The notes under the pieces are model-generated. The model searched no databases, was not told the DNA's origin, and worked only from the letters and a program-made list of their open reading frames with translations. From an uncultured virus (IMG/VR IMGVR_UViG_3300031813_001387) (taxonomy: Duplodnaviria > Heunggongvirae > Uroviricota > Caudoviricetes): a DNA stretch of 64,000 bases. Positions 5,816 through 61,537 of this stretch are shown in pieces. The translations under genes were made by a program, and so were the position numbers. Numbering within the stretch: position 1 is the stretch's first letter; every line of letters starts with the position of its first letter. The stretch lies in the IMG/VR virus record IMGVR_UViG_3300031813_001387, one strand, 5' to 3'.

Positions 5816-5890
5816 AACGAAAAAAACCGGGGCAGCAACCCCGGTCTCTCCGCCCTTACGGGCATGAACAACTATGAACTGGAGGTAAGT

Positions 5891-6685
5891 ATGCAACAAC
5901 CTGCACTGGCTGTCAATGAACTTGCACCACTTGTGAATGTGGGTCTCATGTACGCCGCAACCAAGCGCACCATGGACCGTTCCCGTCATCTCCCCGGCAT
6001 GGTCGTCTTCTACGGCCCGGCCGGCTGGGGGAAGACCTGCGCAGCCAGCTTCGTAGCCAACAGCCTCGATGCCTACCACATCCAGATCCTCTCCTTCTGG
6101 AACCGCCGCGAGTTCTTCGTCCAGCTCTGCATCGAGCTCGGCATCAACCCCAAGAAGGACCCTATTACCGGGAAGCCGATCAAGCCCTCCATCGCCAGCA
6201 TGGGCGCCCAAATCTGCGAGGCCCTCGGCATGTCCCAGAAGCCGCTCATCATCGACGAAGCCGACATCGCGGTCGCCCGCGGCTACATCGACGACATCCG
6301 CGCCATCTTCGAGGGTTCTAAGACCACCGTCATCATGATAGGCGAGGAGACCCTCCCGGACGCCCTGCTTCGTTGGGAACGCATCCACAGCCGTGTCCTG
6401 GAGTGGGTTCCGGCCCAGCCGCCCGACGTCCAGGACGCCATGACCCTCTCCAAGAAATTCGCCCGGGGCGGCATCACCATAGCCGACGACATGGTCGCCA
6501 TGCTGCACCTGAAAAGCGGCGCCTCGATCCGCCGCATCTGTGTCAACCTAGAGCGTATCCAGGACTTCGCCCAGGAGAACGGTATCAGCGTCGTGGACAG
6601 CTCCACCTGGGGCGATCGGCCGCTCTACACCGGTGCCCCGCCGCCCCGCGGCACCGGCCCGCAGCCCCCGAAAGGGCGGAGGTAG
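5891..6685 (+). CDS. Transposition AAA+ ATPase (MuB-like)
   Basis: Walker A GPAGWGKT, Walker B LIIDEAD, RIHSR; GGAGG RBS at 5881 supports ATG 5891. Confidence 0.9.
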   Translation: MQQPALAVNELAPLVNVGLMYAATKRTMDRSRHLPGMVVFYGPAGWGKTCAASFVANSLDAYHIQILSFWNRREFFVQLCIELGINPKKDPITGKPIKPSIASMGAQICEALGMSQKPLIIDEADIAVARGYIDDIRAIFEGSKTTVIMIGEETLPDALLRWERIHSRVLEWVPAQPPDVQDAMTLSKKFARGGITIADDMVAMLHLKSGASIRRICVNLERIQDFAQENGISVVDSSTWGDRPLYTGAPPPRGTGPQPPKGRR

Positions 6686-24727: not shown

Positions 24728-25489
24728 ATGTTTAAACCTGTAATTCCTTGGATAGGTGGCAAGAGAAGACTTGCAAAAGAGATCATTCCGATGTTTCCGG
24801 AGCATATCTGTTATTGCGAACCTTTCTGCGGCGGCGCGGCATTGTTCTTTATGAAGGACCCCTCCAAGGTCGAGGTACTGAACGATTTCAGCGGTGAGCT
24901 GGTAGCCCTTTATCGTGTTATCCAGCATCACCTGGAGGAGTTCATTCGGCAGTATAAGTGGGCCTTGGTCTCGCGCCAGATGTTCGAATGGCTGGGCGAA
25001 ACCCCGCCGCAAACCCTCACCGATATCCAGCGCGCAGCGCGCTTCTTTTACCTGCAGAAGATGTCCTTTGGAGGGAAGGTCTCCCGGCGCAGTTTTGGCA
25101 CAGCCACTACCTCTCCCCCCAGGCTGAACCTTACTCGGGTTGAAGAGGATCTAAGCCAGGCTCATATGAGGTTGGCCCGGTGCTATATTGAAAATCTGGA
25201 CTGGAAGGAGTGCATCAGGAAGTACGACCGACCGGGGACTTTTTTCTTCCTAGATCCGCCGTACTGGAAGGTCGAGGGTTATGGAGCTCCCTTCGGTATC
25301 GATCAGTATCACGCTATGGCCGAGCTCATGCGGACCATGCAAGGTAAGGCTATCCTGACTATCAACGACCATCCAGAGATGAAAGAAATCTTCAAAGGGT
25401 TCGTAAGCAAAGAGGTGGCCATCAGCTACACAGTCGGTGGTGGTGGCCAGAGCAACCAGAGCCGCGAGATGATCATAAAGACCTGGTAA
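24728..25489 (+). CDS. DNA N6-adenine methyltransferase (D12/Dam-like) at the mom position
   Basis: PWIGGKRRL, YCEPFCGGAA, NDFSGELV, FFLDPPY. Confidence 0.92.
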   Translation: MFKPVIPWIGGKRRLAKEIIPMFPEHICYCEPFCGGAALFFMKDPSKVEVLNDFSGELVALYRVIQHHLEEFIRQYKWALVSRQMFEWLGETPPQTLTDIQRAARFFYLQKMSFGGKVSRRSFGTATTSPPRLNLTRVEEDLSQAHMRLARCYIENLDWKECIRKYDRPGTFFFLDPPYWKVEGYGAPFGIDQYHAMAELMRTMQGKAILTINDHPEMKEIFKGFVSKEVAISYTVGGGGQSNQSREMIIKTW

Positions 25490-25730
25490 GGGCAAAAAGA
25501 TGCAAGCTCCCAAAAAGGGGGCATAAGAGGGAGAAAATAATAGCGGTGGGGTGTTGGCATAGACCCGAAAAGAGCCTTCCAGCGTCGGCCTGGAGCATGT
25601 GAGCGAGAAGCCCATAAAAAGGTAGGCTAAAAAGGTTAGCAATAACGACAATCATTTTCAATACATAGGGCAATTTAGGGCGGATTAAACGGGTATTAAA
25701 CCCTGTGCGGTCCGCCTTTTTTTTGAAGCG

Positions 25731-25781
25731 GCTCACTGCCAAAAAAAACCCAAATCACTGCCAAAAAAATTTCGCGCAACA
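25731..25781 (-). repeat. Prophage right end with tandem transposase-binding sites
   Basis: TCACTGCCAAAAAAA at 25733 and 25755 (22-bp period), then terminal CA. Confidence 0.8.
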
Positions 25782-26054
25782 TCCATCCGGGGGCCTTTCT
25801 CTGGTTTTTCCGCTTTGCTGCCGCCTACCTCGGGCGCCGCAGCCGCCGGCGCCTTTCACACCGGTCGCCTAGGCGCACTCGGAATGTTTTTAACGGAGAT
25901 GCATAGATACCAAAAAACCTTTAAAACAAAGGCGCTTGGGAAGGAAAACCAGAATAAGGCGTATAATTAGCAATTCTCTGCCAATTGTATAGTTGATAAA
26001 AAATGTTTATCAATTGGCTACTTATGCTTATGGCGCCATCATGATGATTATGCC

Positions 26055-26966
26055 TCAGACCTCCTTGCCCAGGTGCTCACGCCTGATTTCCTCAAGCTTC
26101 ACCATGATGTCATGGGAAACCGCGTCGATCTCCAGCATCAACTGGTTGGCTTTGGCCTGATTGCCCGAATTAACCGCATTCACGGCATCCTTCGAAAGTG
26201 AGTGGATCCGCTCATGGGGGGCGTTTATCGATCGGAACGAAGCCAGATCCCCGCAGATATGTCCGCCCTCGTTATCGTACCATTTCCCAAACCGGCAGGT
26301 GTGGTGATTGGCCAGTCCGCTTGCATCGAGTTGCGCATCACCGATTACAGAGGCCCGTATCTTGTTGACGAAGAGTCGGTGATCATTTGCGGCTACGGTC
26401 AGCATGAGGACCTCACTCTCCTTGGTTTTGAACCTTCTGACGGTGTCCTGGAGGCTTCCTGAAAGCTTGTTGAGATTGTCCGCCTCTACGGACGTCTGGT
26501 GGGCGGTCTGCGCCGCCTTGACGAAGGCGTCGGTTATTTGGTGGATATTGGTACTGATCTCGCTGGTGGTTGCGGTCTGCTCCTCTGCGGCGGTAGCTAT
26601 CTGGTGGATCTGCTGAGTCACCTCCCCAATCTGCTGCAAAATCCCCTGTAGTGCCTCGCCGGAACGGGCTGCTTCTCCGGCCCCCCTGTCAACCTCAGCG
26701 ACACCCTCACCCATTACCCTGACTGCGGTTTGGGTCTCTTTCTGGATGGCCTTGATCATTGCACCGATTTCCTTGGTGGCATGGGTCGTCCGCTCTGCCA
26801 GGGCTCTGACCTCGTCAGCAACTACGGCAAACCCTCTCCCCTGTTCGCCGGCCCGGGCTGCCTCAATGGCAGCATTGAGTGCTAATAAATTGGTCTGATC
26901 AGCAATGTCCTCGATTGTTCCCACAATCTCACCTATTTGGTCGGACTTAGCACCGAGGCTCTCAAT
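26055..26966 (-). pseudogene. 5'-truncated methyl-accepting chemotaxis protein with C-terminal CZB domain
   Basis: [37 protein letters not shown] motifs [17 protein letters not shown]; similarity begins abruptly mid signalling domain. Confidence 0.85.
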
Positions 26967-29302
26967 ACCTGAAGCCACCAGCAAACATCCAACGCATAGA
27001 TGTCCGAAAAGAGCGGGATAAGGCACTCTCAATCTTGTCACCATATAATTTCCCACAAGGCTGCTGGCCGGCCAAACATCCTTTGGTCTGGAGCCAGCAG
27101 GTGGCGATCAATGCACTGTGGAAAGACCTTGCGCAAGACAGTGGGATTTTTGCGATCAATGGCCCCCCAGGCACAGGGAAAACAACTCTGCTCCGTGATG
27201 TCGTTGCTGCCATATCGGTTGAACGTGCCAAGATATTGGCAAGACTTGGGAAGGATGCATTTGTTGCTAAAAGGACAATCAAGATTGCCGATTACCCTCA
27301 TAATTATCACAGTTTATCGAAAGAGCTTTCAGGGTTCACCATTGTTGTGGCATCAAGCAATAATGGTGCAGTAGAGAACCTTTCTCTCGAATTACCAAAG
27401 GAAACTGCGATCGATCAGAAGTGGGTAGGCAAAACTGATATTTTTACCGATTTGGCTGGACTGCTACTGGATCCGAAAGATCGCCCCGCTTGGGCAATGA
27501 TAGCAGGTCGGCTCGGCAACAAGTCTAACCGCAGTGATTTCGTTAATACCTTTTGGTGGACCGGCTGGGACGGGAAAGGGGATATCCTCGGATTAAGGGC
27601 GAGATTAATTGCTTTGAGAGAAGGGGCCAAACCTCCGACGATCCCGTGGGAAGATGCCGTGTCGAAGTTTAATATGGCATTACAGGCGGAGCACCTGTTG
27701 CGCGACAAAGTAGGCAAAATCAGCAAATATGTAGAAACTTTAGCTGAACTTGCGGATAGCATAAAACAGAATTGTAAGTTACAGGTTACTCGGCGTCCCC
27801 AATTAGTAAGTACAGAAGCAAAGGTAGAAACCATGGCAAAATGCTTGTATGAAAAGTCTGAGTGTATATCAGCCTTGAATTCCCAGTTAGACCGTCTTCA
27901 GGGCACCCGACCGGGCATTCTAGACTGGATATCTACCTTCGGTGGATCACATCGTGAATGGCAATCAAACTTCCACCGTATTATGGAGCAATTACAACCG
28001 CTCGAAGATGCTGAATGCGAGCTAAAGAGAGAATACTCGGATTGGAATCGTCAAAAAGATTACATCAAAAACGAACTCATCATGCTTAGCCGCCAGGAAA
28101 AGGAAATGCAGGCTAACCACACCAAAATCGAACAAGCGCTATTGCGCGATCGTGAATGGCTAGGACCGTACTGGCCAGATCTAACAGCCCATGTCACTGA
28201 ACAAGAGAAATCCAGCCCTTGGGCATATCCGGAATGGCGAGAAGCAAGAATCAAGGTGTTCCTCTCCGCTCTAGAACTTCACAAGAGCTTCATAGAGAAC
28301 CACTCACAGCAGATAATGGGCAACTTGGGACTTGCCATGAGTATGCTCAGCAATGGCATCTCTGATCGTGACGCCTGCCAAACTGCCTTTGACAGCCTTA
28401 CCCTCGTATGCCCGGTAATCTCTACTACATTTGCCTCTGTATCCAGCCTTTTTGGAGCGATTGGAGGTGAGGGCCTTGGCTGGCTTTTGATCGATGAAGC
28501 CGGGCAGGCGACACCACAGGCTGCCGCTGCTACTATCTGGCGATCACGGCGTACTGTCGTTGTCGGAGACCCTTTGCAGCTAGAGCCGGTTGTTACCATC
28601 CCCGGTACTGTTGAAGCGTCGCTTGCCGGATGGAAAGGGAACGTCGATAAACGATTGTACCCGTCTGTTACATCCGTCCAGTTGCTGGCAGATCAGTCGA
28701 CAGCAATCGGCACTGTAGTCGAAATGGACGCGGACGCTCAATGGGTAGGTGCCCCCCTGCGTGTTCATCGTCGGTGTGATGATCCGATGTTCACAATCTC
28801 CAACGCCATTGCCTATGGTGGATTGATGGTGCACCAAAAAGAGCCTTCTGATGTTCCCTGGCCCCCGAGTAGGTGGATACATGTCCCAAAGTGCCCTGGA
28901 GGCGGTAACCATTGGTTACCTGCCGAAGGAGAAGCCCTCAAAACGCTTCTCCGAGACCTCACCATGACGTATCGAGTGTCAGTGAACGATATTTTTCTTA
29001 TTTCTCCTTTTCGAGATGTGGTCAAGGAACTCAGGGTTATTGGTAGGGAGTTTAAGTTAAATTCTCTGAAAGTCGGTACAGTGCACACCACACAAGGTAA
29101 AGAAGCTGAAGTAGTTATAATGGTTCTCGGCGGCAGTAATTCCGGTGTTCGTGATTGGGCCGCAGGAAAACCCAATCTCTTGAATGTCGCCATAAGCCGT
29201 GCGAAAACAAGGTTTTACGTTATCGGTGAGCGGCCAGACTGGAGCGCAAGGAAATATTTTGATGTTTTGGCAAGGGATATGACTCTGGAGTTATATAAAT
29301 AG
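26963..29302 (+). pseudogene. 5'-truncated SF1 helicase (DNA2/NAM7/Upf1-like)
   Basis: NGPPGTGKTT, SSNNGAVEN, LLIDEAGQA, VGDPLQLEP, GTVHTTQGKE, NVAISRAK; frame stays open upstream of TTG 27035 only to the junction and has no RBS. Confidence 0.8.
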
Positions 29303-29460
29303 GTGGTCTATACAGATATATGGACAAAGAGGGACAGCTACAGTTTGTTAGCCCAAATGATAAGGACCTGACTTTTACATTCAATTATCTCGAAATTTCA
29401 GTGCAGTGATGAACCAATACCAAGCCAGATAAAGAAACCATTTATGGTCGGGGGGTATTT

Positions 29461-29835
29461 ATGCAAATCAAACAAGGAATGTGGCTAAAACATCTAAAAT
29501 TTGGTACAGTGGACTCATTCGATCCGGAGGGAAACAAAATAACACTGTTTTTCCGCAATGTAAAAACCAAAGAAACAAATACGTATACATTCACAATCGA
29601 AGAACTTGCCGAGATTAATAATATGGACCTCCGGTACGATCCAGAAGATGTCTCGATCAGTTATTTGGTTAATTTCTTCATAAGTCTTTCGATTTTTGTC
29701 GCGATTACATCTTTTTTCTGCCTTTGGAAGATCGCTTTAGTAGGGTGCCTATTATTCTATATAACCTACTTCTTTAAAGCGAGACAAAGAAGCCGGTGGC
29801 TTGAACGATACCCGAATTATCATAAAGTTATTTAA
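29461..29835 (+). CDS. Small membrane protein with two C-terminal TM helices
   Basis: GGGGGG RBS; hydrophobic C-terminal half. Confidence 0.65.
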   Translation: MQIKQGMWLKHLKFGTVDSFDPEGNKITLFFRNVKTKETNTYTFTIEELAEINNMDLRYDPEDVSISYLVNFFISLSIFVAITSFFCLWKIALVGCLLFYITYFFKARQRSRWLERYPNYHKVI

Positions 29836-29843
29836 TCCCTCAG

Positions 29844-29942
29844 GGTAAATTCCCCGCCCCTTGGGGCGATTGATGTATTGCATCGCAGCAGCGATGCTGT
29901 ACTGAAGAAGATACCCCGTTGCTTGCAGCGGGGAAATTCATT
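29844..29942. mobile_element. Non-autonomous palindromic element, IS200/IS605-end-like MITE/REP
   Basis: Three GC-rich hairpins (29855-29868, 29880-29897, 29914-29933) ending in ...GGGGAAATTCA within AT-rich DNA. Confidence 0.55.
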
Positions 29943-29992
29943 ACTAACCAACTATCTGTGGCTGAGTTTGTGCTGCAAACGATGTTGCACTG

Positions 29993-30461
29993 CTTTCATA
30001 ACATATAAATCTTAAAGACCTATTCACCCTCCCACGCAAACAGACTGCGATTACACGAGGTCATTTCTCGATAGCCGCTAAAATTAGTGGCTTATTCATC
30101 AAAAGGCATTTCTTAACTGCTGTACACCGAAGGATTTTCAATAGTCTATATGAGCCGAAGACGTATCTATCTGGTGTATACTAACCGTATTCGGCAAGCA
30201 TAACTATTCCAATAGCATCTAAACATCAAAGACTTATCCACCTTTTAACTACCCTTATCTGAGAGGGGTATGACAAATTCCAATAGCCTCTAAAACCTGG
30301 AAGGCTTATTTATCGAGTTCTGGATTTTGACTGGACTGATTCCTTCATTTCAATAGTCTCTATGCCTCAAAGACTTATCCAGTTTTCCCCTGTCGAAACG
30401 CACAAGAAGTACGCCTTTTCAATAGTCATCAAGGCATTCAAATCCAAAAGACTCATCCACC
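29993..30461 (-). CRISPR. Degenerate orphan CRISPR-like array, 7 repeats and 6 spacers
   Basis: Repeats of 36-38 bp (one of 46) start at 29993, 30065, 30135, 30206, 30277, 30347 and 30416; unique 32-36 bp spacers; minus-strand consensus about GGTGGATA-AGTCT-N11-AGACT-ATTGAAAT. Confidence 0.72.
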
Positions 30462-30495
30462 AACTTATAAAGGATCAATCGCATCGGAATAAAAA

Positions 30496-31119
30496 CTACA
30501 AATCCTCTACTGTCGATTGTGGAGGATTTGCGATCTCTCCCCTCTTGGCTTCGCATACGACCTGACCTATTTCAGCGAGGTGGCGAAAAAAAGTGCGTCT
30601 GCCGATCTCGAAGGTTTTGCAAAGGTCAGCCGCAGTGTAGCCGCCATCTTCATACAGTATCCTTGCCTTTTCCAGTTTCTCTGTGCTTGTTTTAGGCCGT
30701 CCCCCGGTCTTCCCCCTGGCTCTTGCTGCAGACCTACCAGCGGCAGCGCGTTCGGACTTTAGCTCTCTTTCCATCTGGTTAATTACGCCCATCATGCCTA
30801 TGAAGGCTCGCCCCGTTGCAGACGTCGTATCGATGTTTTCACGAAGGGAAACGAGATGAATCTCTTTCTTCTTGAACTCATCAACGAGGGTCAAGAGGTG
30901 CGAAAGCGATCGAGTCATCCGGGACAACTCGGCCACAACCACTGAATCACCAGGTCTGATGAATTCAAGTAGGCGGTCCCACTCCGGACGTGATTCACTT
31001 ACACCGCTAGTTTTGTCCGCATACACTTTTTGGCACCCTGCGGCCTTCAGCATATCCAGTTGACCATCGAGATTCTGGTCTTTTGAGCTTACCCTGGCAT
31101 AGCCGATTCGTTGAGACAT
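30496..31119 (-). CDS. Serine recombinase (resolvase/invertase) with C-terminal HTH
   Basis: RIGYARVSSKDQN, RPEWDRLL..IRPGD, GGRP, HTH; start MSQR at 31119. Confidence 0.92.
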   Translation of the reverse strand: MSQRIGYARVSSKDQNLDGQLDMLKAAGCQKVYADKTSGVSESRPEWDRLLEFIRPGDSVVVAELSRMTRSLSHLLTLVDEFKKKEIHLVSLRENIDTTSATGRAFIGMMGVINQMERELKSERAAAGRSAARARGKTGGRPKTSTEKLEKARILYEDGGYTAADLCKTFEIGRRTFFRHLAEIGQVVCEAKRGEIANPPQSTVEDL

Positions 31120-31251
31120 ACAAGCACTCTCCGTTATAACTTCTAAACTGCTACTTAATCTAGCGACAAGTAACCGGCTAGAAGTATTGAGAGACACACC
31201 AACCAAATCCATGTATCAGATCGGCGCATCATCTAGGCCTCAACAATGAGG

Positions 31252-31878
31252 TTAGTACCCAGGTTTCCAGTTAGCGTTGATCTCTTTCAATTCCTGTCGC
31301 ACATCAGGCGTGGCCATTGCAGCGTAAGTATCGTCATAGAGCTGTGTCTTGCCGCTTTTGAGGTGGTCCCTCCAGTGTAACATCGCCGCCAAATAGATAT
31401 CCTGGAGATAGTTTTCGTCCTTTGCAGCCTTTGACCCAACGTAACCGCCCTTGGCGGGAAACGCTTCAAACTTGACAACGATGGTTGGATCAAAGGACGA
31501 TGGCCTTTTCTGGCGAAGTTCGAATTCTCCATGCACGTTGAGTATAAGCCTGTTCATTGTTTTATTACTGCCCGCCGCGATGACCTCTCTTAGCCGGTCA
31601 AATAACGGCTCATCTGGATAGTCCTTGCGAAAAACGCGAGAAGCGTGATGCAGTACCGGCTGCGGCGGTGACCACATCTCTGGATCGATATCGTAAGTGG
31701 TCCCTCCCAATGGAATGGTAGTCCTCCGCATGGGAGCTATCTCGCCTGGATTCTCCGTGGTGAAGTCGGTGTCCTGTAAGGAACATGTTCCCCTGCTGAG
31801 GGAACGCCATGAACCATCCTTCTGCAGACGCCAATCCCCCGCCAACAAATCTGTCAATTCAGACGTAAACAAAAACAT
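31252..31878 (-). CDS. Hypothetical protein
   Basis: AAGGAG RBS before ATG 31878; 208 aa. Confidence 0.65.
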   Translation of the reverse strand: MFLFTSELTDLLAGDWRLQKDGSWRSLSRGTCSLQDTDFTTENPGEIAPMRRTTIPLGGTTYDIDPEMWSPPQPVLHHASRVFRKDYPDEPLFDRLREVIAAGSNKTMNRLILNVHGEFELRQKRPSSFDPTIVVKFEAFPAKGGYVGSKAAKDENYLQDIYLAAMLHWRDHLKSGKTQLYDDTYAAMATPDVRQELKEINANWKPGY

Positions 31879-31940
31879 ATTTTCTCCTTGTTAAAAAAAC
31901 ACAGTGGTGACTGACTCTCCCGTTAATTGCCCAGACAATA

Positions 31941-32073
31941 GTGCCACAACCTGACCTGGTTGTCAATATCTGGCACCTTGATTCTGGCTGAGGTTTTGGC
32001 ACGAGTTTGATCTTGGATTCGAGGAGAATTCGGTGGGATTAGGTTCAGTGCCAAAAGTAGACATTTGGCACTG
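31941..32073. other. res-like recombination site
   Basis: GTGCCA/TGGCAC half-sites at 31941, 31971 and 31997, and palindrome CAGTGCCAAA-N8-TTTGGCACTG at 32046-32073, upstream of the resolvase unit. Confidence 0.6.
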
Positions 32074-32227
32074 TGACAAAATGAGTAATAAAAGCCTTTG
32101 GAAAAAAGAATTAAAGTTTCTCATTTAATTGCCGATAAGCCTAAACGTACTGATGATAAGTTGATACCAAAGAAGGTCGTCTTATGTTATGCAAGCAATG
32201 GAATCTATACAAATTTAAGGGGGCAAT

Positions 32228-33067
32228 ATGAATAGGATAATATATGGTGCATTAATGTTGGTTATAGCTGGTTTGCAGGGGTGCTGCAACCAATACTCCA
32301 CGTTTTACCATGACAATCTTGTTGGCGTGCCTGGCGGCAGAACAGCCTATGTAGAATTCTACACAGGTGAACCTAAGGCAATTAACGGTACAACTCCAGA
32401 AATAGACAATAAGAACATGTTTGAAAATGGCAATATGCTATTAGGTTATTCTTCATTCGATGGCCCGAAAGGCCCTGTTGAAGATGCCGTAAGAGTTGCA
32501 AAAGATAAAGGAGCTGAATTTCTTATATATTATGCAAATTATATTAACTCGGTATCTGGCAGTTATACCTATTCAATGCAAAATCCTAATCAAACTATAA
32601 TATCTAATAGCTCTGGAAATATAAACAGTAACGGGGCAGTGTATGGCAATGGTGGTTCTTTAAATTACTACGGAAACACAAGGTACAATGGCACAACGTC
32701 TACTGTTATACCAGGTGGGTACACATCATACAATATCCCATATACAATAAATCGATATAACTATCTCGCAACGTATTGGGCTAAAATTCCTGTTATACAT
32801 TTTGGAGTTGCCTCTAAAGATTTACCAGACGATGTTAAGCATGAGTTGCAACGGAACAAAGGTGCAATAGTTACAATGGTAGTTAAAAACTCTCCAGCCT
32901 TTAATGCCAATATTCTTACTGGAGACATTTTATTGAAATTTAATGGCAAAGATATCGTTGACACAGCAGACCTTTCTAGTAATATAAAAAATTATTATGG
33001 CAAAAATGTTAGAATTGAATATCTTAGAGGTAGTGAAACTAGGGAAATTGACATATTGCTTAATTAG
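32228..33067 (+). CDS. Lipoprotein with C-terminal PDZ domain
   Basis: Lipobox LQGC; GAIVTMVVKNSPAFNANILTGDILLKFNG. Confidence 0.8.
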   Translation: MNRIIYGALMLVIAGLQGCCNQYSTFYHDNLVGVPGGRTAYVEFYTGEPKAINGTTPEIDNKNMFENGNMLLGYSSFDGPKGPVEDAVRVAKDKGAEFLIYYANYINSVSGSYTYSMQNPNQTIISNSSGNINSNGAVYGNGGSLNYYGNTRYNGTTSTVIPGGYTSYNIPYTINRYNYLATYWAKIPVIHFGVASKDLPDDVKHELQRNKGAIVTMVVKNSPAFNANILTGDILLKFNGKDIVDTADLSSNIKNYYGKNVRIEYLRGSETREIDILLN

Positions 33068-33132: not shown

Positions 33133-34047
33133 TCAATCTTGGTATGAAGTCATTTTTCCGTTTTCAAAATAGACGTATTGCCCATTACTACGGTACACCC
33201 ACTGCTCGTGCGTGCCCCATTTAACAGTTGTTTTGTGAATGGCTTGTGGTTCACCCCATGCCATTGTCACTTGTTCTTTAGACATGCCGAGTACTATTTT
33301 GCGCTCCTTGATAGCTTTGATAGTTTTAAGGTTCCATTTCTTCTTATATACGGCATCCATATTGCTGCTTGTTAAGCTTCGTGCTAATTTAACGGCATAT
33401 TGTGTTGGCTCGATTTCGACTCCATTGCATAGTAGCTTGATCCCTATTATTTCTGCATTATCGTCATATGATGTACTGATGCCTTTAAAAACAGCCTGTG
33501 TGAAAGCTGGCAAATACGAGCCGTCATTTAAAACAATCGGTATTTGAACCCAGACCTTAGTACCAGGGATAATTTTATTAACCATGAACATATCTAAGTA
33601 CTTTTTAAACTTTTCAGTTAGTTGCGCTGCTTTGGCATCTTTGCATTTCTGCTCGGATTCCAACGGATTATAGGTGAATACATATTGGTCCTTGTCCGGA
33701 ATTTCGCAATTTGATGTATTTATGTTTGGCTTTTGGTAGGATAAGCGAAATGAATCTAGATATGATATTGAAGCATCAGGCAACCCAACTTCGGCTGTAG
33801 GTACGTATATCTGCATTCTTGAGTCATGCTCAATGCATCTAGTGACTTTAAAATTCAATGCATCGCCATTCGGAAATATCTTGACTCTAGCTTCACCATC
33901 CATTCTATCAACTAGATTTCTAGAATAGCCTGTTACCCAGAAAAACTTCCCTATGTATGGCGTGCAATCGTCAATAGCTTGCGCAGTATTTGAAGCTAGT
34001 AACAAAAAAATGGTGCACGCAAATTTTAACCTATCCAAACACCTCAT
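33133..34047 (-). CDS. Secreted protein with C-terminal BamE/BLIP-like domain
   Basis: GGAGG RBS before ATG 34047; signal peptide ending AQA; GMSKEQVTMAWGEP...EQWVY...YVYFENGK. Confidence 0.7.
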   Translation of the reverse strand: MRCLDRLKFACTIFLLLASNTAQAIDDCTPYIGKFFWVTGYSRNLVDRMDGEARVKIFPNGDALNFKVTRCIEHDSRMQIYVPTAEVGLPDASISYLDSFRLSYQKPNINTSNCEIPDKDQYVFTYNPLESEQKCKDAKAAQLTEKFKKYLDMFMVNKIIPGTKVWVQIPIVLNDGSYLPAFTQAVFKGISTSYDDNAEIIGIKLLCNGVEIEPTQYAVKLARSLTSSNMDAVYKKKWNLKTIKAIKERKIVLGMSKEQVTMAWGEPQAIHKTTVKWGTHEQWVYRSNGQYVYFENGKMTSYQD

Positions 34048-34112
34048 TTTATACCTCCATACTTTGCCTTGTACGGCCTGCTGGCAAGGATACGCTTGAT
34101 ACAGCTCGTGCA

Positions 34113-34556
34113 TTAGGACAATAATCCCGCCCTTTTCAGTTTGTCCTGATAACTTTTAATCTTCAATCTGTTTCTAGATTTAATGATGTCTGCCTGCAGA
34201 GTCCTGATATTGATCTTGAAAGAGATGCCGAGGCCTATGGCGAGAAAGAATGCCGGGATGAGCAGTGCCGCCTTGTCCGGGCCGAAAATCTTGTTTTCCC
34301 CGAAGAAACAGCATATTGCCAGAACTGGAACCGTCCCTATGACCGCGCCGTAGATGCTAGCGATCATCCCGCGGTAGGTGAGCAATTCTATCTTCCTGTA
34401 ATTGCCCATTATATCCCATTCGCTCTTGTGCCTGTCTATGCAATAGGTCTTGCAGTTCCAACACTCAAGAACTGGATCGCCGATATCGCAGCCTATTTGA
34501 GTACGTTCTAACAGAGTTGAACACTTTGGGCATCTCTTGCTGATGATGGTTGGCAT
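34113..34556 (-). CDS. Zinc-ribbon membrane protein
   Basis: CPKC and CWNC pairs followed by two TM helices. Confidence 0.65.
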   Translation of the reverse strand: MPTIISKRCPKCSTLLERTQIGCDIGDPVLECWNCKTYCIDRHKSEWDIMGNYRKIELLTYRGMIASIYGAVIGTVPVLAICCFFGENKIFGPDKAALLIPAFFLAIGLGISFKINIRTLQADIIKSRNRLKIKSYQDKLKRAGLLS

Positions 34557-38595: not shown

Positions 38596-40752
38596 TCAAC
38601 AATTTTCTAAAAGTATCGCAAGGTTCTCGCCGATTCCATTGTAGTGGTCATATTGGGGTGACTCCTCTGGAAGGTTTCTCAAGGTCACCTCGACCTCCCG
38701 TGCGATACGCTTGAGTTCCTCGATCTCGACAGGATCACTTTTATCTACGCAGAAATGCTCACAAGGCCCCTTCTTGTCGCCATCCTTAGTAAAGCAACCC
38801 AGATGGTGGGGGCAGGGATCGAGCCCCCAGTTGAGCGTGCAGGCACCGTGTGGCATGATGTTGATCATTAGAGTGTATGCCATCAGGAATTGCTCCGCCT
38901 CTTCACGCGATTGGGATGCCAGACGTACGTAGGCGTCGGTTATGTGGCCGAAGACACTACCATCACGAACAGCCTGACGCAGATTTTCTAGTCGTTGTTT
39001 CTTACTGGTCTGGTCATAGGTATGGTTTGAACCCTTCTTGCGGCCAAATACAACGCCAACTGTGTCTTCGTCCATCATTCCTTCGGCATAAATGGTGTCG
39101 AGCCAGTGACGGACATCGTGCGAGGTGTACTTTGCGATTTCTCCGGTTTTGGGATCTACAATCCCGAGCCGGTTAAAGCAGCTATCCTCATGGTTCCCTG
39201 AGCCTTGTGACCGTGTCTCACCCCTAAGCCATCGACTAAATCCATTGTCCGTAATAAGCCGGTAGTCCTCATCCTTTGTAGAGTGCCATGTCGAAAAACC
39301 GTACCTTGGAATAACGAAAAGGGCGTCCTCTGGTTCAAGGCGGGACTTCCCTTCTTTATCCATAATGACAGCCCGGATCTTCCTCTCAAATTTAGCTTCG
39401 AAATCCTTGTCTAAAACAGGGCAGGGGTACACCTGGCCAGCAAGTTGCAGTCGTTGAGCCTCGTCGAGTATGTGACGATATGATGCTGGTTTCGGAGTTT
39501 GCAACATAATCCCACAGTGTAATCGGAACCTTTGGAGCGAGATAACCCTGGTGTCCGTGTCCCAAGAGGTTCGCACTCCTTTTCCTCCGGTTTCAATTGG
39601 GCCCGGCAGTAAACCTTCATGTGCATTCGTCTGTGCTATCAACAAGCCAGCGATCGTTTTTCTTGTAACACCTAATTCTCTTGCCGCGGCTGATTTGGAA
39701 CCGGCCGACTTTACAAGTTCGATGACATCAACGAAACGTTGCTGCTTTTCGAGCCACGCTCCCTCTGTGTTGATCATTTTGTGTAGAGGGTCAGCAGCCC
39801 AGTTATGGGCGAACCTACCGACAAAATAATCTGTCGCCGCCTGATTGTTTAATATGGCTGACCAATTTGGTGGCAGAGACCTCCTGATTTCAGCTACTGC
39901 AGCCCGCCCAGGTTCGGTAATCAAGATGATGTGATCTAAGGCCGTTACAACTGAAGGCTCCATATCGCTTGCAATGAATCGGGTACCGAGTTTGCCGTCC
40001 TTTTCAGGGAAAAAACGCAAACTGGTATTCCCATTATTCTGAAGAAGGCAGTCCTTAGGCATAGTTGCAAGCTCATTAATTCTAAAGCCTGTTGCAATCA
40101 GAATAACGAACGCCGACAGGAAAAAGCGGTCTTTATCTGAATTGTCAGTGTTATTGTTAGCGGCAACCATGTCGCGGATCACTTCTGTACTCATAAGTTT
40201 TTCTTGCCGGCCTTCTTCCGATGCCTTTCGGCCATGCATGTACACGGAAGGAAGCCCAGCCTCGTAGCTAATGGAAATTCCAAGCTGCCAATTTAGCCAG
40301 GCGCCGAATTCTTCGAGCATATCTGCGAATCTCTTCGGTGCTGTCCTCTCACACGATTTCTTGATTAAAATCTCGGCGTTGTAAAAATCAACATTGCGTA
40401 GCTTGCTAATATCTTTACCAAGAATTACCTTGTCGAGAAATTTGCAAGTATCGAGATACATATGGGCTGCACGGCCACCGACTGTTTTGGTTAGACGCTT
40501 GTGAAGGGTGAACACTTTAAGGCACTTGCGTAAGTCGCTGTTTTTTATATCATAATAATATATAGGGAATGTCTCTGAGTTGCCAGGACGTGTTAGCCAT
40601 GATATCAGTTCCCAGGTGTCGGATTCAAAATCGACTCCAATCGGTAGGACGCTCCCAAGTTTTGGCAATAATTCGCTCAAAGTTGGACTGAGTGTATATC
40701 CGGAGAGAAGTTCTTTTAACTTGAAGGAAACGTTACTTCCGGCGGACGTCAT
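38596..40752 (-). CDS. Large tyrosine recombinase (GinC-like)
   Basis: ATGFRINEL, SHDVRHWLDT, FGRK..SNHTYD; overlaps upstream gene by ATGA. Confidence 0.8.
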   Translation of the reverse strand: MTSAGSNVSFKLKELLSGYTLSPTLSELLPKLGSVLPIGVDFESDTWELISWLTRPGNSETFPIYYYDIKNSDLRKCLKVFTLHKRLTKTVGGRAAHMYLDTCKFLDKVILGKDISKLRNVDFYNAEILIKKSCERTAPKRFADMLEEFGAWLNWQLGISISYEAGLPSVYMHGRKASEEGRQEKLMSTEVIRDMVAANNNTDNSDKDRFFLSAFVILIATGFRINELATMPKDCLLQNNGNTSLRFFPEKDGKLGTRFIASDMEPSVVTALDHIILITEPGRAAVAEIRRSLPPNWSAILNNQAATDYFVGRFAHNWAADPLHKMINTEGAWLEKQQRFVDVIELVKSAGSKSAAARELGVTRKTIAGLLIAQTNAHEGLLPGPIETGGKGVRTSWDTDTRVISLQRFRLHCGIMLQTPKPASYRHILDEAQRLQLAGQVYPCPVLDKDFEAKFERKIRAVIMDKEGKSRLEPEDALFVIPRYGFSTWHSTKDEDYRLITDNGFSRWLRGETRSQGSGNHEDSCFNRLGIVDPKTGEIAKYTSHDVRHWLDTIYAEGMMDEDTVGVVFGRKKGSNHTYDQTSKKQRLENLRQAVRDGSVFGHITDAYVRLASQSREEAEQFLMAYTLMINIMPHGACTLNWGLDPCPHHLGCFTKDGDKKGPCEHFCVDKSDPVEIEELKRIAREVEVTLRNLPEESPQYDHYNGIGENLAILLENC

Positions 40753-42317
40753 GCTAACTCACCTTGAATTTGTGTGAGAATCTCTTTGGTTGACTCAATG
40801 GCCCTGTCAAAAACTGCTAGGGACTTGCGTTCAGGGATAGAAAGGGACATTGTGATGCTAGGGTCACCTGTCGGATTACACCGGGACTTTTGCGTTTCAA
40901 AATACCTAAGTGCCTTTTTGTGCGGTTCAGGATTATTCCAGGCGCGGAAACTGCTGCAATCGGCATAGCAGGAAAGGAAAGGATGTTTTTTACAGCCGCC
41001 ATCCGTGATCGGGTCTCGGCCGCAAGACCCGACGATTAACGGCGTAGTGCAGTATCCAGGCACGACAATTGGTGCCCCTGTGACCTCAGGTACGACTTTG
41101 CCCTGAAAGAAGCTTTTGTTGAGCTCGAAAAAGATATTCCCCATCAACCGGCCTGCCTTCTCGATTGCTGGGACGATATCCGACCCGATCGCATCTATAT
41201 AAGCTTGGCAGGATAACGGAGAATCGTGTTCCAGAATTTCCTGAATAATATCCCTTGAAACACCCGCAAATGCTAACCGGGTAGCTCCGGTATGACGGAT
41301 TCTCGTAGGTGTTACATGGAGAACCTTGCCAGTCCGGGGACTGATCGCCTGGCGCTTGTAAATGAACCCCATAAGGGCCTGTTTGCCATCCGCAGAACTC
41401 AGAACGCCACGCTCAAGTAGTGATGGCGCATTCCAAACAATCAATCGGTTGTATTTATTTTGAAGGTATGCAACTTCAGTCCTTTTGCTAAAGGACACGA
41501 TTTCTTTGGCTAGATCATCACTTATGTGACACCAACGTTTCGGCATACCCGTTTGATATTTTATAGGACGAACCTCGACAAACCACTCATCATGACCACT
41601 ATCCGGCACACACTTGAGTCCATCACATGATATTTCTAGGATCTGCGAAGAACGCTTCAGTGTTTCCAGAAGGAGCCAACCATACAGTCTGGTTGCATCT
41701 CTTTTAGTCAATTCATTATCACTTGCAGGCATTCGTAATATTTCTCTTAGAACCTCCTCCTCAGAGCTTGTTAAAGCACCCGCGACTGGATCCCATTCCA
41801 GCACCTCTCTGAGAAGTAGCACTTCGCTCCGGGACTTCCATGAGCGCATTTCATGAGCTATGTCGGGGCGTGCACCGCCGATTCTACGAGTAGCCAATTC
41901 CTTATAAAGTGATCTGAATAAAGATCGATACGAAGGTATAAGTTTCTGAAATATTTCAAGCATTTCAGTGGTTGACAAATCACTAAAGTCGTTACAAGAT
42001 TTAATTATCGTGGTTTGGAACTGCTCAAGCATACAGCTTACTACACTCATGTATCCCGGGCTCACCCTTTTTATTTTTTCTTTGACAACGTCATGTATGG
42101 GCTTGAGCATCCCAATCGGAATGTTTAAGCTATCCCAATCAATAGATTCAGTATTGCCAGCATACACCACACTCCATTGTGGAGTAGATATATCAACCCA
42201 AATTGGGATAGCTGGATTGAACTCATTTCTAATATAAATTCTACCAGATGAATTGGTCCAGATATCATCAACAGGGTCATAGCGTTTTTCTTCAGTTATA
42301 AACCCAGTGATGCCCAT
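40749..42317 (-). CDS. Tyrosine recombinase (GinB-like)
   Basis: TLKRSSQI, TPTRIRHTGAT, ILEHDS..SCQAY. Confidence 0.8.
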   Translation of the reverse strand: MGITGFITEEKRYDPVDDIWTNSSGRIYIRNEFNPAIPIWVDISTPQWSVVYAGNTESIDWDSLNIPIGMLKPIHDVVKEKIKRVSPGYMSVVSCMLEQFQTTIIKSCNDFSDLSTTEMLEIFQKLIPSYRSLFRSLYKELATRRIGGARPDIAHEMRSWKSRSEVLLLREVLEWDPVAGALTSSEEEVLREILRMPASDNELTKRDATRLYGWLLLETLKRSSQILEISCDGLKCVPDSGHDEWFVEVRPIKYQTGMPKRWCHISDDLAKEIVSFSKRTEVAYLQNKYNRLIVWNAPSLLERGVLSSADGKQALMGFIYKRQAISPRTGKVLHVTPTRIRHTGATRLAFAGVSRDIIQEILEHDSPLSCQAYIDAIGSDIVPAIEKAGRLMGNIFFELNKSFFQGKVVPEVTGAPIVVPGYCTTPLIVGSCGRDPITDGGCKKHPFLSCYADCSSFRAWNNPEPHKKALRYFETQKSRCNPTGDPSITMSLSIPERKSLAVFDRAIESTKEILTQIQGELA

Positions 42318-43546
42318 TTATTGCCTCCAGATTGCCATAGTTTCAATGCTTGCTGAGCGCGTGATTGTCGAGATCTATTGGTATATATTTGTAAGCTCTT
42401 TTCATCAGCCCATCCGCCCCAGTAGACTAGATCCATCAGTTTGGCTTTCTTTTCTTCCTTGTTCTGAATATCTATGACTGCTTCGTAGGCTCTATTGAAA
42501 AATGCGTGCCGCGAAAGATGCCAGTGAAATGGAATGCCTGTGTTTTTCGAAATCTGTTGAGCAATTGCCTGGGACCCTGATATGGAAAGAGCATTTCCAG
42601 GAGTGCGGTGGTGATTGACGATGAGAAACTCGTGACCCACAAAAAATTGCTTGCTTCTTTTTTCACCTCGATTGACCAATTTGAACCTATGCTCGTTGGT
42701 ATATTCACCGATTAGGTTAGGGATTGGCGAAACGAACAAGAAGCCTAGATCGCGAGATAGCGTCTTTGGCCGGGGAGCTTTCGCACCACGCGGATCGCGA
42801 TACTTGGGGCCTCTTTCCTCGATACGTACTATCTTGATGTAGTCTTGATCCTTGTGTGGACAATCGCAGAGCCTTAATGCGAGGATCTCACCATCGCGTA
42901 ACCCAAACTCAATTGATAGGCGCCAGAAAAGAAAATCACGTGTGGCAAGCTCAGGGGACACATCTTTTCTGTTTTCAGGCCTAAGATATTGGTCGATGGT
43001 ATAAATTTGCTCCTCAGTCAGGTCTGGTGCACATTTAAATTTGCGATCTTTTTTCTTAACATCCGAAAAAAGTTTCTTCTGCAAACTGATAATGCTCTCC
43101 CTTTCAACAACCGAAATGGATGGAGATAATCCGATCCCATGATGCCTTGCAAAGTAATCCATCATACAAGACGCATGCATCAGGATTCCATTATAACCTG
43201 ATATCGCAAAAGGTATTATTTCCTTTCCGTTGGATTTGCCGCGGGACTCGAGCCAATGGGCAAATCTCCTGACATCCACGGCACTCAAGAACTCCCCCCT
43301 CAAAATCAGTTCCTCGAGGTCTATATTTTCAATAATTGCCCAAGTGAAGACATATAAAAGCTGTCCTAGCCTGGTTTTCACGCTATTATGGGAATCCGTC
43401 CGATGGGTCAGGTATTGCTCGTATACGGATAGAACCTTTGACGGCTCCAGGGTGTCTCTCCTCTGGACAATAAATCGGGGCTTGCCATCCGACATAAAGG
43501 AAGAAACCCGGTAGGCGAGGGGGGAGGAATCCAAATCGGCTGCCAC
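42296..43546 (-). CDS. Tyrosine recombinase (GinA-like)
   Basis: FGLRDGEILAL, PKTLSR, HWHLSRHAF, WGGWADEKSLQIY. Confidence 0.85.
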   Translation of the reverse strand: MAADLDSSPLAYRVSSFMSDGKPRFIVQRRDTLEPSKVLSVYEQYLTHRTDSHNSVKTRLGQLLYVFTWAIIENIDLEELILRGEFLSAVDVRRFAHWLESRGKSNGKEIIPFAISGYNGILMHASCMMDYFARHHGIGLSPSISVVERESIISLQKKLFSDVKKKDRKFKCAPDLTEEQIYTIDQYLRPENRKDVSPELATRDFLFWRLSIEFGLRDGEILALRLCDCPHKDQDYIKIVRIEERGPKYRDPRGAKAPRPKTLSRDLGFLFVSPIPNLIGEYTNEHRFKLVNRGEKRSKQFFVGHEFLIVNHHRTPGNALSISGSQAIAQQISKNTGIPFHWHLSRHAFFNRAYEAVIDIQNKEEKKAKLMDLVYWGGWADEKSLQIYTNRSRQSRAQQALKLWQSGGNKWASLGL

Positions 43547-50956: not shown

Positions 50957-51002
50957 ATGTTCGGCAGATCACCCGGTAATGTTCGGCAGATCACCCGGTA
51001 AT
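50957..51002 (+). repeat. Perfect 22-bp tandem duplication, iteron-like
   Basis: ATGTTCGGCAGATCACCCGGTA twice, plus AT. Confidence 0.8.
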
Positions 51003-57786: not shown

Positions 57787-57789
57787 GAT

Positions 57790-58232: not shown

Positions 58233-58344
58233 CTGGGAGCGGCAATGGAACCTGGACGAATCCGCTCAAGATTAAAACAGTCAAAAAGTCGTGTAAAAAG
58301 CTTGCGCGAGGTAGGTAGCTATGATATAAGGTTGTTTCTTGAAT

Positions 58345-58422: not shown

Positions 58423-58439
58423 CTCAAGTGCTTGACTCT

Positions 58440-58516: not shown

Positions 58517-58532
58517 AACTACAATCAAATAT

Positions 58533-61523: not shown

Positions 61524-61537
61524 TGTACCCTCCCTTG

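What the first reader, a model, noticed from the sequence alone, without database searches (positions are those of the whole stretch)
29993..30533. Orphan, highly degenerate CRISPR-like array with covarying hairpins and an 8-nt 3' handle
Seen: seven repeats recur every 69-72 bp with unique 32-36 bp spacers, and no two repeats are identical. On the minus strand each reads G(G/A)TG(G/A)ATA, then a stem-loop, then ATTG(A/G)AA(T/A). The stem covaries: AGTC/GACT in repeats 6 and 7 (GTCT/AGAC in 3) versus AGCC/GGCT in repeats 2 and 5. Repeats 4-6 extend through G-U pairs only on the minus strand (repeat 2 has one mismatch there). The most decayed repeat is at 29993, the trailer end in that orientation. 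One spacer-length (34 bp) past repeat 7, a 12-bp hairpin (30499-30530) overlapping the resolvase 3' end may be an eighth unit. No cas gene is recognisable in the 64 kb. Established: a hairpin followed by an 8-nt AUUGAAAN handle is the Cas6-type processing geometry of class 1 repeats, and actively acquiring arrays keep near-identical repeats. Inference: structure is conserved while sequence drifts, which fits an island-borne guide or decoy RNA array that borrows host Cas proteins in trans (inter-MGE targeting, gene regulation or RNA anti-CRISPR), or an undescribed non-Cas guide system. Standard CRISPR finders could miss it.
Basis: partly seen in the sequence, partly recalled or inferred. Interest (0 to 1): 0.9.

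Follow-up and report, generated by a model that had tools for sequence, protein, structure and literature searches.

The report
Decayed orphan CRISPR-like repeat array
Seven badly eroded CRISPR-like repeats with six unique spacers sit, without any cas genes, in mobile DNA of a lake-dwelling Geobacter relative, and they look more like a dead remnant than a new guide-RNA system.

Summary
The array is real. Seven units of 36-46 nt recur every 69-72 bp, separated by unique 32-34 nt spacers. On the minus strand, 5 of the 7 end in CTATTGRAA. The evidence offered for function did not hold up. Only one base pair covaries, in 2 of 49 cells, and shuffles match that easily. The retained pairing, G-U pairs included, fits neutral transition-biased decay of a palindromic ancestor (P 0.06-0.14). 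The proposed eighth unit is the conserved C-terminal coding sequence of the DNA invertase, and it doubles as a strong terminator-like hairpin followed by a T-run. That leaves the array 37 nt downstream of a terminator with no leader. Two handles carry indels. I found no cas gene in the window and no cas1 or cas6 in the three nearest relatives. No spacer matched anything. No related repeat turned up in 87 family genomes, 151 class genomes, IMG/VR, or the metagenome hits, and Rfam has no matching CRISPR-DR family. Invertase homologues carry no such array. The array showed no differences in contigs from runs dated 2012-2020. Canonical type I-C arrays in Geobacteraceae share the 37-nt geometry and the ATTGAAA ending but nothing else. 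Best reading: a decayed, leaderless orphan CRISPR array of foreign origin in the cargo region beside a Mu-like prophage. A functional trans-acting array is not excluded.

The parts
30416..30461 (-). Repeat R7, 46 nt, on the leader-proximal side in minus orientation. It carries a 9-nt insertion in the loop region.
   Evidence: model R1 scores it 36.0 bits; 8 of 37 differences from consensus
30347..30383 (-). Repeat R6. It has the best hairpin of the seven (-6.9 kcal/mol) and ends in CTATTGAAAT.
   Evidence: 45.3 bits; 5 differences
30277..30314 (-). Repeat R5. Its stem is AGCC/GGCT and its handle is ATTGGAAT.
   Evidence: 43.6 bits; 7 differences
30206..30242 (-). Repeat R4, the unit closest to the consensus.
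   Evidence: 47.6 bits; 3 differences
30135..30171 (-). Repeat R3.
   Evidence: 40.2 bits; 12 differences
30063..30100 (-). Repeat R2. Its stem is AGCC/GGCT and its 3' handle is broken by a 2-nt insertion.
   Evidence: 40.8 bits; 11 differences
29992..30028 (-). Repeat R1, at the trailer end. Its handle is shortened by a deletion.
   Evidence: 37.1 bits; 11 differences
30029..30415 (-). Block holding the six unique spacers: 30029-30062, 30101-30134, 30172-30205, 30243-30276, 30315-30346 and 30383-30415.
   Evidence: lengths 34, 34, 34, 34, 32, 33; no mutual homology, no match in the window longer than 16 nt; only chance hits in phages and plasmids
30496..31119 (-). DNA invertase (serine recombinase) gene, 207 aa, directly upstream of the array on the same strand.
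   Evidence: Pfam Resolvase 2e-42 plus HTH_7; phrog_125 DNA invertase 6e-61; start and C-terminus fixed by alignment with relatives of 68-80% identity
30499..30530 (-). Hairpin proposed as an eighth unit. It is in fact the invertase's last codons and a terminator-like stem, followed by the stop codon TAG and TTTTT.
   Evidence: -15.7 kcal/mol, z -3.71. The terminator scan did not flag it.
29829..29944 (.). MITE-like dispersed repeat bounding the trailer side. Its two inverted end modules are 29829-29871 and 29910-29944.
   Evidence: 44-nt match at 93% identity beside an IS630 transposase on a Trichlorobacter lovleyi plasmid; both modules recur in other metagenome contigs with different flanks

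Best explanation
This is a relic: a leaderless, cas-less CRISPR array that no longer works. It was probably acquired with AT-richer foreign DNA and now sits in the cargo region between the tail-fibre genes of a Mu-like prophage and a DNA invertase gene, in a Geobacteraceae bacterium from lake water. The ancestor would have been an ordinary class 1 array: a 37-nt repeat with a short palindrome, ending in ATTGAAA(N), and spacers of about 34 nt. Rearrangements then removed the leader and any cas genes. The invertase gene with its terminator now abuts the leader side, and a MITE abuts the trailer side. Since then repeats and spacers have picked up substitutions (66% of them transitions) and a few indels. 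The residual hairpin, the G-U pairs and the single compensatory-looking pair are what is left of the ancestral palindrome. Shown here: the anatomy, the lack of cas genes, leader and relatives, and decay statistics compatible with neutrality. Inferred: the CRISPR ancestry, the foreign origin and the loss of function.
For: Geometry matches a CRISPR array: period 69-72, repeats mostly 36-38 nt, unique spacers of 32-34 nt. In 17 of 87 Geobacteraceae genomes, canonical arrays show the same 37-nt repeat, a 70-73 bp period and the ATTGAAA ending. The one locus I examined is attached to a type I-C cas operon.

Decay signs:
- Mean pairwise identity is 0.64.
- Differences from consensus are 3-8 in R4-R7 and 11-12 in R1-R3, so the trailer side is the more eroded.
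- Column heterogeneity is not significant, P 0.07-0.10.
- Indels break the handles of R1 and R2, and R7 carries a 9-nt insertion.
- The paired fraction of 0.837 lies within neutral simulations at the observed transition share, P 0.06-0.14.
- Covariation does not exceed shuffles.
- Whole-array fold z-scores are -0.35 and -0.81.

No leader: only 37 nt separate R7 from the invertase stop codon, which lies in a -15.7 kcal/mol hairpin followed by a T-run. Promoter-like sites are at chance level, 5 found against 5.3 expected.

No Cas families in the window. cas1 and cas6 are absent, and no cas3 scores above cut-off, in the 3 nearest relatives.

Spacers match nothing.

The array showed no differences on the pieces covered in contigs of three partial-holder runs dated 2012, 2016 and 2019.

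Repeats have 28-37% GC and the island about 47%, against about 61% in the flanks.
Against: - A 64%-identical array implies a long time since the repeats were uniform, and neutral DNA is usually deleted from bacterial genomes before it decays that far.
- With uniform substitutions, the retained pairing exceeds neutral simulation (P 0.008-0.015). The loop diverges most: 0.35 differences per cell against 0.16-0.22 elsewhere.
- Five of the 7 handles are intact.
- No canonical ancestor repeat was found anywhere I searched, so CRISPR ancestry itself rests on resemblance.
- The host genome is not held, so a cognate cas system elsewhere cannot be excluded.
- No expression data could be obtained.
Confidence: 0.5

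Rival explanations
1. A working, MGE-borne, CRISPR-derived RNA array. It would be transcribed from the minus strand, cut at the hairpins, and loaded in trans onto a host class 1 effector that accepts an ATTGAAA(N) handle. The products would act as regulators or decoys (like crRNA-like or anti-CRISPR RNAs) or as guides against rival elements.
For: Five of the 7 units keep the hairpin followed by CTATTGRAA. Pairing is 83.7%, against 24-55% for slid registers, and exceeds a uniform-substitution neutral model. The ATTGAAA ending is shared with the type I-C arrays of the family. Prophage-borne arrays of 2-3 degenerate repeat-like units that silence host CRISPR-Cas are described in bioRxiv 10.1101/2024.10.29.618823 (passages read). 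Repeat-mimic RNAs are described in PMC11656645 (passages read) and PMC10651486 (abstract only). A TATAAG hexamer sits at 30464-30469 on the minus strand, just upstream of R7 (read directly from the sequence).
Against: - No cas genes in the window, and none of cas1 or cas6 in the 3 nearest relatives.
- A terminator lies directly upstream and no promoter-like site exceeds chance.
- The handles of R1 and R2 are broken.
- Apart from the last 7 nt, the repeats do not resemble the family's repeats.
- No spacer targets were found.
- Covariation is not significant.
- No conservation in any other element.
Confidence: 0.2
2. Not CRISPR-derived. Instead, a tandem array of weak palindromes with another role, such as binding sites for a DNA-binding protein of the element (the neighbouring invertase or a partition or regulatory protein) or tandem small-RNA genes. 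In that case the 'spacers' are unconstrained linkers that drifted beyond recognition.
For: No known repeat family matches: Rfam gave no CRISPR-DR hit at E up to 10, and no canonical relative was found. The repeats were never seen in a uniform state. Each unit is an imperfect palindrome, as protein-binding sites often are. It lies next to a site-specific recombinase.
Against: - The 37 + 34 nt geometry and the ATTGAAA(N) end are specifically CRISPR-like and match the family's real arrays.
- A 70-bp period is not a whole number of helical turns.
- The units do not look like invertase crossover sites: a loose scan for a central dyad motif (recalled from memory) gave 4 hits against 2.2 expected, none in the array.
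- 11 loci with invertase homologues have no such array.
- No promoter sits in front of each unit.
Confidence: 0.2
3. A chance arrangement or an assembly artefact.
For: Tandem Repeats Finder reports nothing, and the repeats are very degenerate.
Against: The motif clustering was never reached in 100 shuffles. The seven units score 36-48 bits against a next-best 11.9 bits in 64 kb (the model was built from these units, so this is partly circular). The same sequence occurs with no differences in contigs of several independent runs.
Confidence: 0.03

Closest known systems
Canonical 37-nt-repeat CRISPR arrays of Geobacteraceae, for example GTAGCGCCTGCCCTTCGGGGCGGGCGAGGATTGAAAC in G017, which sits beside a type I-C operon (cas3c, cas5c, cas8c, cas7c, cas4c, cas1c)
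   Same: 37-nt repeat, period of about 70-73 bp, spacers of about 34-35 nt, a palindromic core, and the last residues ATTGAAA(N).
   Different: Those repeats are uniform within an array, GC-rich, and have three extra nucleotides (AGG) between the stem and ATTGAAAC. They have adjacent cas genes. Here the repeats are 64% alike, 28-37% GC, show no stem similarity and have no cas genes. Only one of the 17 genomes' loci was checked for cas genes.
Orphan or relic CRISPR arrays without cas genes, such as the orphan CRISPR2 of Enterococcus faecalis (PMC5491264, abstract only)
   Same: An array without cas genes that persists in the genome.
   Different: The described orphan arrays I could cite keep recognisable, near-uniform repeats belonging to a cas-linked family found in related strains. 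Here every repeat differs and no cas-linked family was found.
Viral CRISPR mini-arrays and single repeat units / RNA anti-CRISPRs (PMC11656645, passages read; PMC10651486, abstract only)
   Same: CRISPR-derived repeats carried by a virus or prophage without cas genes, proposed or shown to use host Cas proteins.
   Different: Per PMC11656645, mini-arrays have 1-2 spacers, repeats identical to the host's, and spacers that target related viruses. Here there are 6 spacers, degenerate repeats, no targets and an unknown host system.
Prophage-borne arrays of degenerate repeat-like and spacer-like units that silence host CRISPR-Cas ('Cracr' arrays; bioRxiv 10.1101/2024.10.29.618823, passages read)
   Same: Degenerate repeat-like units on a prophage, multiplexed, followed by terminators.
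   Different: Those have 2-3 spacer-like units with about 10-nt matches to cas or regulator promoters of an identifiable host system. Here there are 6 units and neither a host system nor a target could be tested.
CasMu CRISPR-associated Mu transposons (PMC10910872, passages read)
   Same: A Mu-type element (MuA 3266-5455, MuB-like 5864-6685) with a CRISPR-like array in the same mobile region.
   Different: CasMu elements carry Cas12 or type I-A effector genes and casmuC. No Cas family was found here.

Membership tests
CRISPR array (canonical) | Direct repeats of about 23-50 nt that are near-identical within the array | tested here: not met
   Mean pairwise identity 0.64 and no two units identical
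CRISPR array (canonical) | Regular interspacing by unique spacers of similar length | tested here: met
   Spacers of 32-34 nt, period 69-72, no mutual homology
CRISPR array (canonical) | Leader with a promoter on one side | tested here: not met
   37 nt between R7 and the invertase stop/terminator hairpin; promoter-like sites at chance level
CRISPR array (canonical) | cas genes adjacent or elsewhere in the genome | tested here: inconclusive
   None among 59 ORFs of the window. The host genome is not held. cas1 and cas6 found in 0 of the 3 nearest relatives.
CRISPR array (canonical) | Repeat belongs to a known repeat family | tested here: not met
   No Rfam CRISPR-DR hit at E up to 10. Model R1 finds nothing in 87 family genomes, 151 class genomes, or 187 array-bearing or pattern-hit loci, except the window's own copy.
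CRISPR array (canonical) | Spacers derived from mobile elements (protospacer matches) | tested here: not met
   Only chance hits (E about 6) in 50,697 phage and 72,556 plasmid records; none in the window
Cas6-type class 1 repeat | Stable hairpin directly followed by an 8-nt handle, ATTGAAA(N) | tested here: inconclusive
   5 of 7 units have stem plus CTATTGRAA. The hairpins are weak (-2.5 to -8.0 kcal/mol). The handles of R1 and R2 are broken by indels. No cleavage was tested.
Viral mini-array / RNA anti-CRISPR repeat mimic | Repeat identical or closely similar to the host's own CRISPR repeat | not testable with these tools
   The host genome is not held. Against the family's type I-C repeats, only the last 7 nt agree.
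crRNA-like regulatory ('Cracr') array | Spacer-like part with a partial match plus PAM at a cas or regulator promoter | not testable with these tools
   No host cas locus is available
CasMu CRISPR-associated Mu transposon | Interference-defective Cas effector genes inside the Mu element | tested here: not met
   MuA and MuB-like genes are present, but no Cas family appears in Pfam, PADLOC or NCBIfam scans
Serine-invertase crossover sites | About 26-bp sites made of two inverted half-sites around a 2-bp core, in inverted pairs flanking a segment (definition recalled from memory) | tested here: not met
   All units are direct, with half-palindromes 11-20 nt apart. The loose core-motif scan gave 4 hits against 2.2 expected, none in the array. 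No inverted pair flanks the region above chance.

The most novel reading that the evidence does not exclude
The array is alive. It would be a six-guide array of deliberately divergent CRISPR-like repeats carried by a Mu-like prophage or island, transcribed and processed by a host class 1 system that shares the ATTGAAA(N) handle. Its role would be to reprogram or jam host immunity or to target rival elements. Repeat divergence might itself be selected, for example to avoid recombination or to escape recognition by the adaptation machinery. A variant of this reading is that it is the surviving guide array of a CasMu-type RNA-guided Mu transposon that lost its effector genes.
Probability: 0.15. 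Interest if true: 0.7.

Novelty: new member of a known kind. Interest (0 to 1): 0.3.

Why it matters
If it is a relic, it is a useful extreme example. CRISPR geometry can outlive repeat identity: here identity is 64%, and a repeat finder such as TRF sees nothing. It also shows how residual palindromes and transition-generated G-U pairs can mimic covariation. If it were functional, it would extend the recently described prophage-borne arrays of degenerate repeat-like RNAs from 2-3 units to 6, and into Geobacteraceae. That would bear on how mobile elements exploit host Cas proteins. Nothing found here makes that the likelier case.

Tried and rejected
- **Whole genome.** Not held, so I could not compare with the host's own arrays or cas genes.
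- **RNA evidence.** No RNA holder is listed among 24 runs, so there is no information on expression.
- **Homologous loci.** The invertase and ORF 31252-31878 have only self-hits in IMG/VR (searches gave one 60% relative). The invertase has no close relative in the genome collection. 11 loci with homologues at 42-66% identity have no array.
- **Repeat relatives.**
  - A single-repeat pattern with up to 3 mismatches in 87 family genomes gave chance-level singles, similar to the reversed control. One hit lies inside a coding gene.
  - Model R1 gave one isolated AT-rich promoter-like hit in each of two searches.
  - Two-repeat and three-handle patterns in IMG/VR and JGI metagenomes found many real arrays ending in CTATTGRAA. 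None scored with R1 at E up to 0.1.
  - A stricter single-repeat pattern gave 6 isolated hits.
- **Hidden Cas proteins.** ORF 31252-31878 has no family and a poor Atlas model (pLDDT 0.33). ORF 33133-34113 resembles hypothetical lipoproteins. Loose Pfam scans found no Cas signal. The helicase 27035-29302 is MkoC-like (9e-65) and has only a P-loop-level hit to a type IV RecD model (1.3e-5).
- **Invertase-site idea.** Rejected.
- **Mu ends.** I could not locate them from inverted repeats.
- **Subtype recall corrected.** I first recalled the family's 37-nt repeats as type I-G. The check showed type I-C at the locus examined.
- **Contig cover.** X17's contigs do not cover about 30197-30319. This is a gap in cover, not a finding.
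Full report
**What is there**

Between 29992 and 30461 the window holds seven units of 36-38 nt (one of 46 nt). Their starts are 70, 72, 71, 71, 70 and 69 bp apart. They are separated by spacers of 34, 34, 34, 34, 32 and 33 nt.

On the minus strand the aligned consensus is GnTGGATAAGTCTTTnAGnTTTAGAGGCTATTGAAAT, with mean column identity 62% and 9 invariant columns. This is not chance. CTATTGRAA occurs 6 times in the 64 kb, 5 of them in the array at regular spacing, against 0.84 expected, and no shuffle out of 100 reaches 6. GRTRRATRRGYC occurs 5 times, all in the array, against 0.54 expected and 0 of 100 shuffles.

Tandem Repeats Finder sees nothing. A covariance model built from the seven units scores them at 36-48 bits, and the next best in the window scores 11.9 bits (this is circular for the seven units themselves). 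The spacers share only 6-7 nt words with each other, and their longest match elsewhere in the window is 16 nt with one mismatch.

**The claims made for structure**

I tested a 7-pair hairpin, alignment columns 9-15 paired with 24-26 and 36-39. 83.7% of the 49 cells pair, against 24-55% when the 3' partners are slid by 1-3 columns. The palindrome is therefore real.

Only one pair (11/37) changes on both sides: U-A in three units, C-G in R2 and R5, U-G in R4 and R1. That amounts to 1 pair and 2 cells. 260 of 500 shuffles reach the pair count and 103 of 500 reach the covariation score.

I then asked whether the retained pairing needs selection. I mutated a palindromic ancestor at random, giving each unit its observed number of differences:
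- With uniform substitutions the simulated pairing is 0.69-0.70, and the observed 0.837 is reached with P 0.008-0.015.
- 37 of the 56 observed differences are transitions. At transition shares of 0.6-0.7 the neutral expectation rises to 0.74-0.77 and P becomes 0.06-0.14.

The complementary outcome, A-C on this strand, is also present in 3 cells.

Rate heterogeneity among columns is weak, P 0.07-0.10. The loop is the most diverged part, at 0.35 differences per cell against 0.16-0.22 elsewhere. The individual hairpins are weak, -2.5 to -8.0 kcal/mol. The whole array folds no better than shuffles on either strand, z -0.35 and -0.81. The handles of R1 and R2 are broken by indels, and R7 carries a 9-nt insertion. 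Differences from consensus run 8, 5, 7, 3, 12, 11, 11 from R7 to R1, so the three trailer-side units are the most eroded.

**The 'eighth unit'**

The hairpin at 30499-30530 lies inside the neighbouring gene. That gene is a DNA invertase: Pfam Resolvase 2e-42 with HTH_7 and phrog_125 at 6e-61. Alignment with 13 relatives of 68-80% identity puts its start at 31119. It also shows that its last residues, ANPPQSTVEDL, belong to a conserved C-terminus. The hairpin is made of those codons. It folds at -15.7 kcal/mol, z -3.71, and is followed by the stop codon and five T. This looks like the gene's terminator, although the consensus scan did not list it.

So the minus-strand array starts 37 nt after a terminator and has no leader. 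Promoter-like sites in 29300-32300 are at chance level, 5 found against 5.3 expected.

**Surroundings**

The host is a Geobacteraceae bacterium. The flanking ribonucleotide reductase is 91%, 88% and 86% identical to those of an uncultured Geobacter, Citrifermentans bremense and Geomonas edaphica. Synteny with these relatives ends at the reductase stop codon. The DNA occurs in lake and freshwater metagenomes.

The left part of the window is a Mu-like element: MuA 3266-5455, a MuB-like ATPase, Gp36 to Gp48 tail genes, and tail fibres up to 24314. From about 24.3 kb to 51.4 kb, GC falls from about 61% to about 47%. This region holds a Dam methylase, a chemoreceptor, an MkoC-like helicase, the array, the invertase, a trio of tyrosine recombinases and a HipA kinase.

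A MITE-like element at 29829-29944 abuts the trailer side. It matches DNA beside an IS630 transposase in Trichlorobacter lovleyi and recurs with other flanks in metagenome contigs.

No Cas family was found among 59 ORFs with Pfam or 25 ORFs with PADLOC and NCBIfam. The one weak exception is a P-loop-level hit of the helicase to a type IV RecD model, whose best match by far is MkoC. An IMG/VR record is 100% identical over the locus and is the same sequence, not independent support.

**Relatives of the repeat**

The host genome is not held.
- **Family genomes.** In 87 species genomes of the family, a single-repeat pattern with up to 3 mismatches gave only chance-level singles. The model gave one isolated AT-rich hit.
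- **Class genomes.** In 151 genomes of the class, the model gave one isolated promoter-like hit.
- **Canonical arrays in the family.** 17 of the 87 family genomes carry canonical arrays with a 37-nt repeat ending in ATTGAAAC and a 70-73 bp period. In the one locus I examined, these sit beside a type I-C operon. They share geometry and the last seven residues with the array here. Otherwise they differ: they are GC-rich, uniform, and have three more nucleotides between stem and handle.
- **Nearest relatives.** The three nearest relatives have no cas1, no cas6, and no cas3 above cut-off.
- **Collection scans.** Scans of IMG/VR and JGI metagenomes for periodic CTATTGRAA found many genuine arrays; the metagenome scan was cut at 119 loci. 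None of the 187 loci tested scores with the model at E up to 0.1, apart from the window's own copy.
- **Rfam.** No family matches the repeats even at E up to 10.
- **Invertase homologues.** 11 loci with invertase homologues carry no such array.
- **Spacers.** No spacer match in 50,697 phage or 72,556 plasmid records beyond E of about 6.
- **Other runs.** Contigs of three partial-holder runs dated 2012, 2016 and 2019 cover parts of the array with no differences, so no spacer turnover is seen. No RNA run holds the locus.

**Interpretation**

The geometry and the handle-like end make CRISPR ancestry the most economical reading. That ancestry is inferred, not shown, because no ancestor repeat was found.

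Everything bearing on function points to a relic:
- no leader;
- a terminator directly upstream;
- no cas genes nearby or in the nearest relatives;
- broken handles;
- decay statistics compatible with neutrality;
- no targets;
- no conservation elsewhere.

One observation fits this reading poorly. An array would have to survive a long time to reach 64% identity. Together with the nominally high pairing under a uniform-substitution model, this keeps a functional reading alive at roughly one in five.

Known precedents for a functional reading differ in important ways. Viral mini-arrays have repeats identical to the host's and 1-2 spacers (PMC11656645, passages read). Repeat-mimic RNA anti-CRISPRs are described in PMC10651486 (abstract only). 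Prophage arrays of 2-3 degenerate repeat-like units silence host CRISPR-Cas (bioRxiv 10.1101/2024.10.29.618823, passages read). CasMu transposons couple Mu transposases to Cas effectors (PMC10910872, passages read), but no effector gene is present here. I could not see the supplements of the bioRxiv preprint; they list its arrays and might hold a similar repeat. A non-CRISPR palindrome array is the other rival, at about one in five.

**Verdict**

This is a real but ordinary kind of object, an orphan degenerate CRISPR-like array in unusually eroded form. The evidence offered for selection on structure does not survive testing.

Noticed in passing
window 1400-24314: Mu-like transposable prophage: HTH repressor-like gene 1876-2307, MuA 3266-5455, MuB-like AAA 5864-6685, then Gp36 to Gp48 tail and baseplate genes and tail fibres. 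Only about 2.9 kb without Pfam hits lies between the MuB-like gene and Gp36. No portal, protease or major head genes were recognised, so it may be a head-less (defective or tailocin-like) Mu derivative.
   Followed up: partly
window 57735-58236: Four tandem copies of a unit of about 120-139 nt (63-95% identity to the reference copy), immediately upstream of three tRNA genes at 58345-58606. Two integrase genes follow at 58698-60509 and 60876-61565, which suggests a second island at the tRNA cluster.
   Followed up: no
window 29829-29944: MITE-like element with inverted end modules. One module is 93% identical over 44 nt to DNA beside an IS630 transposase on a Trichlorobacter lovleyi plasmid. 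Both modules occur in other metagenome contigs with different flanks.
   Followed up: partly
window 38596-43546: Three consecutive minus-strand genes of 718, 522 and 416 aa. The two smaller hit the phage-integrase family (E 5.5e-07 and 1.8e-05); the 718-aa protein has only a weak hit (E 0.0026). This is a tyrosine-recombinase trio of the kind seen on some integrative elements.
   Followed up: no
window 24728-29302: Defence-like cargo between the tail fibres and the array: a Dam-type type II methyltransferase (PADLOC 1e-105) and an SF1 helicase most similar to Mokosh MkoC (9e-65), with a soluble chemoreceptor (MCPsignal plus CZB) between them.
   Followed up: no
window 30496-30531: The codons for the invertase C-terminus (ANPP...VEDL) form an 11-of-12 bp hairpin ending at the stop codon. 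The peptide motif is conserved in relatives (ANPPQ..EDF), so the coding sequence may double as the terminator.
   Followed up: partly
window 50957-51000: Perfect tandem duplication of a 22-nt unit in the intergenic region between the HipA-bearing island and the ribonucleotide reductase gene, near where synteny with relatives ends.
   Followed up: no
L226/L450 (G017:C1 about 2418826-2430600): A Geobacteraceae genome carries a long array (at least 28 pattern matches) of a 37-nt repeat beside a complete type I-C operon. A PDC-S13 candidate-defence protein is inserted between cas4 and cas1, and one spacer is duplicated in tandem.
   Followed up: no
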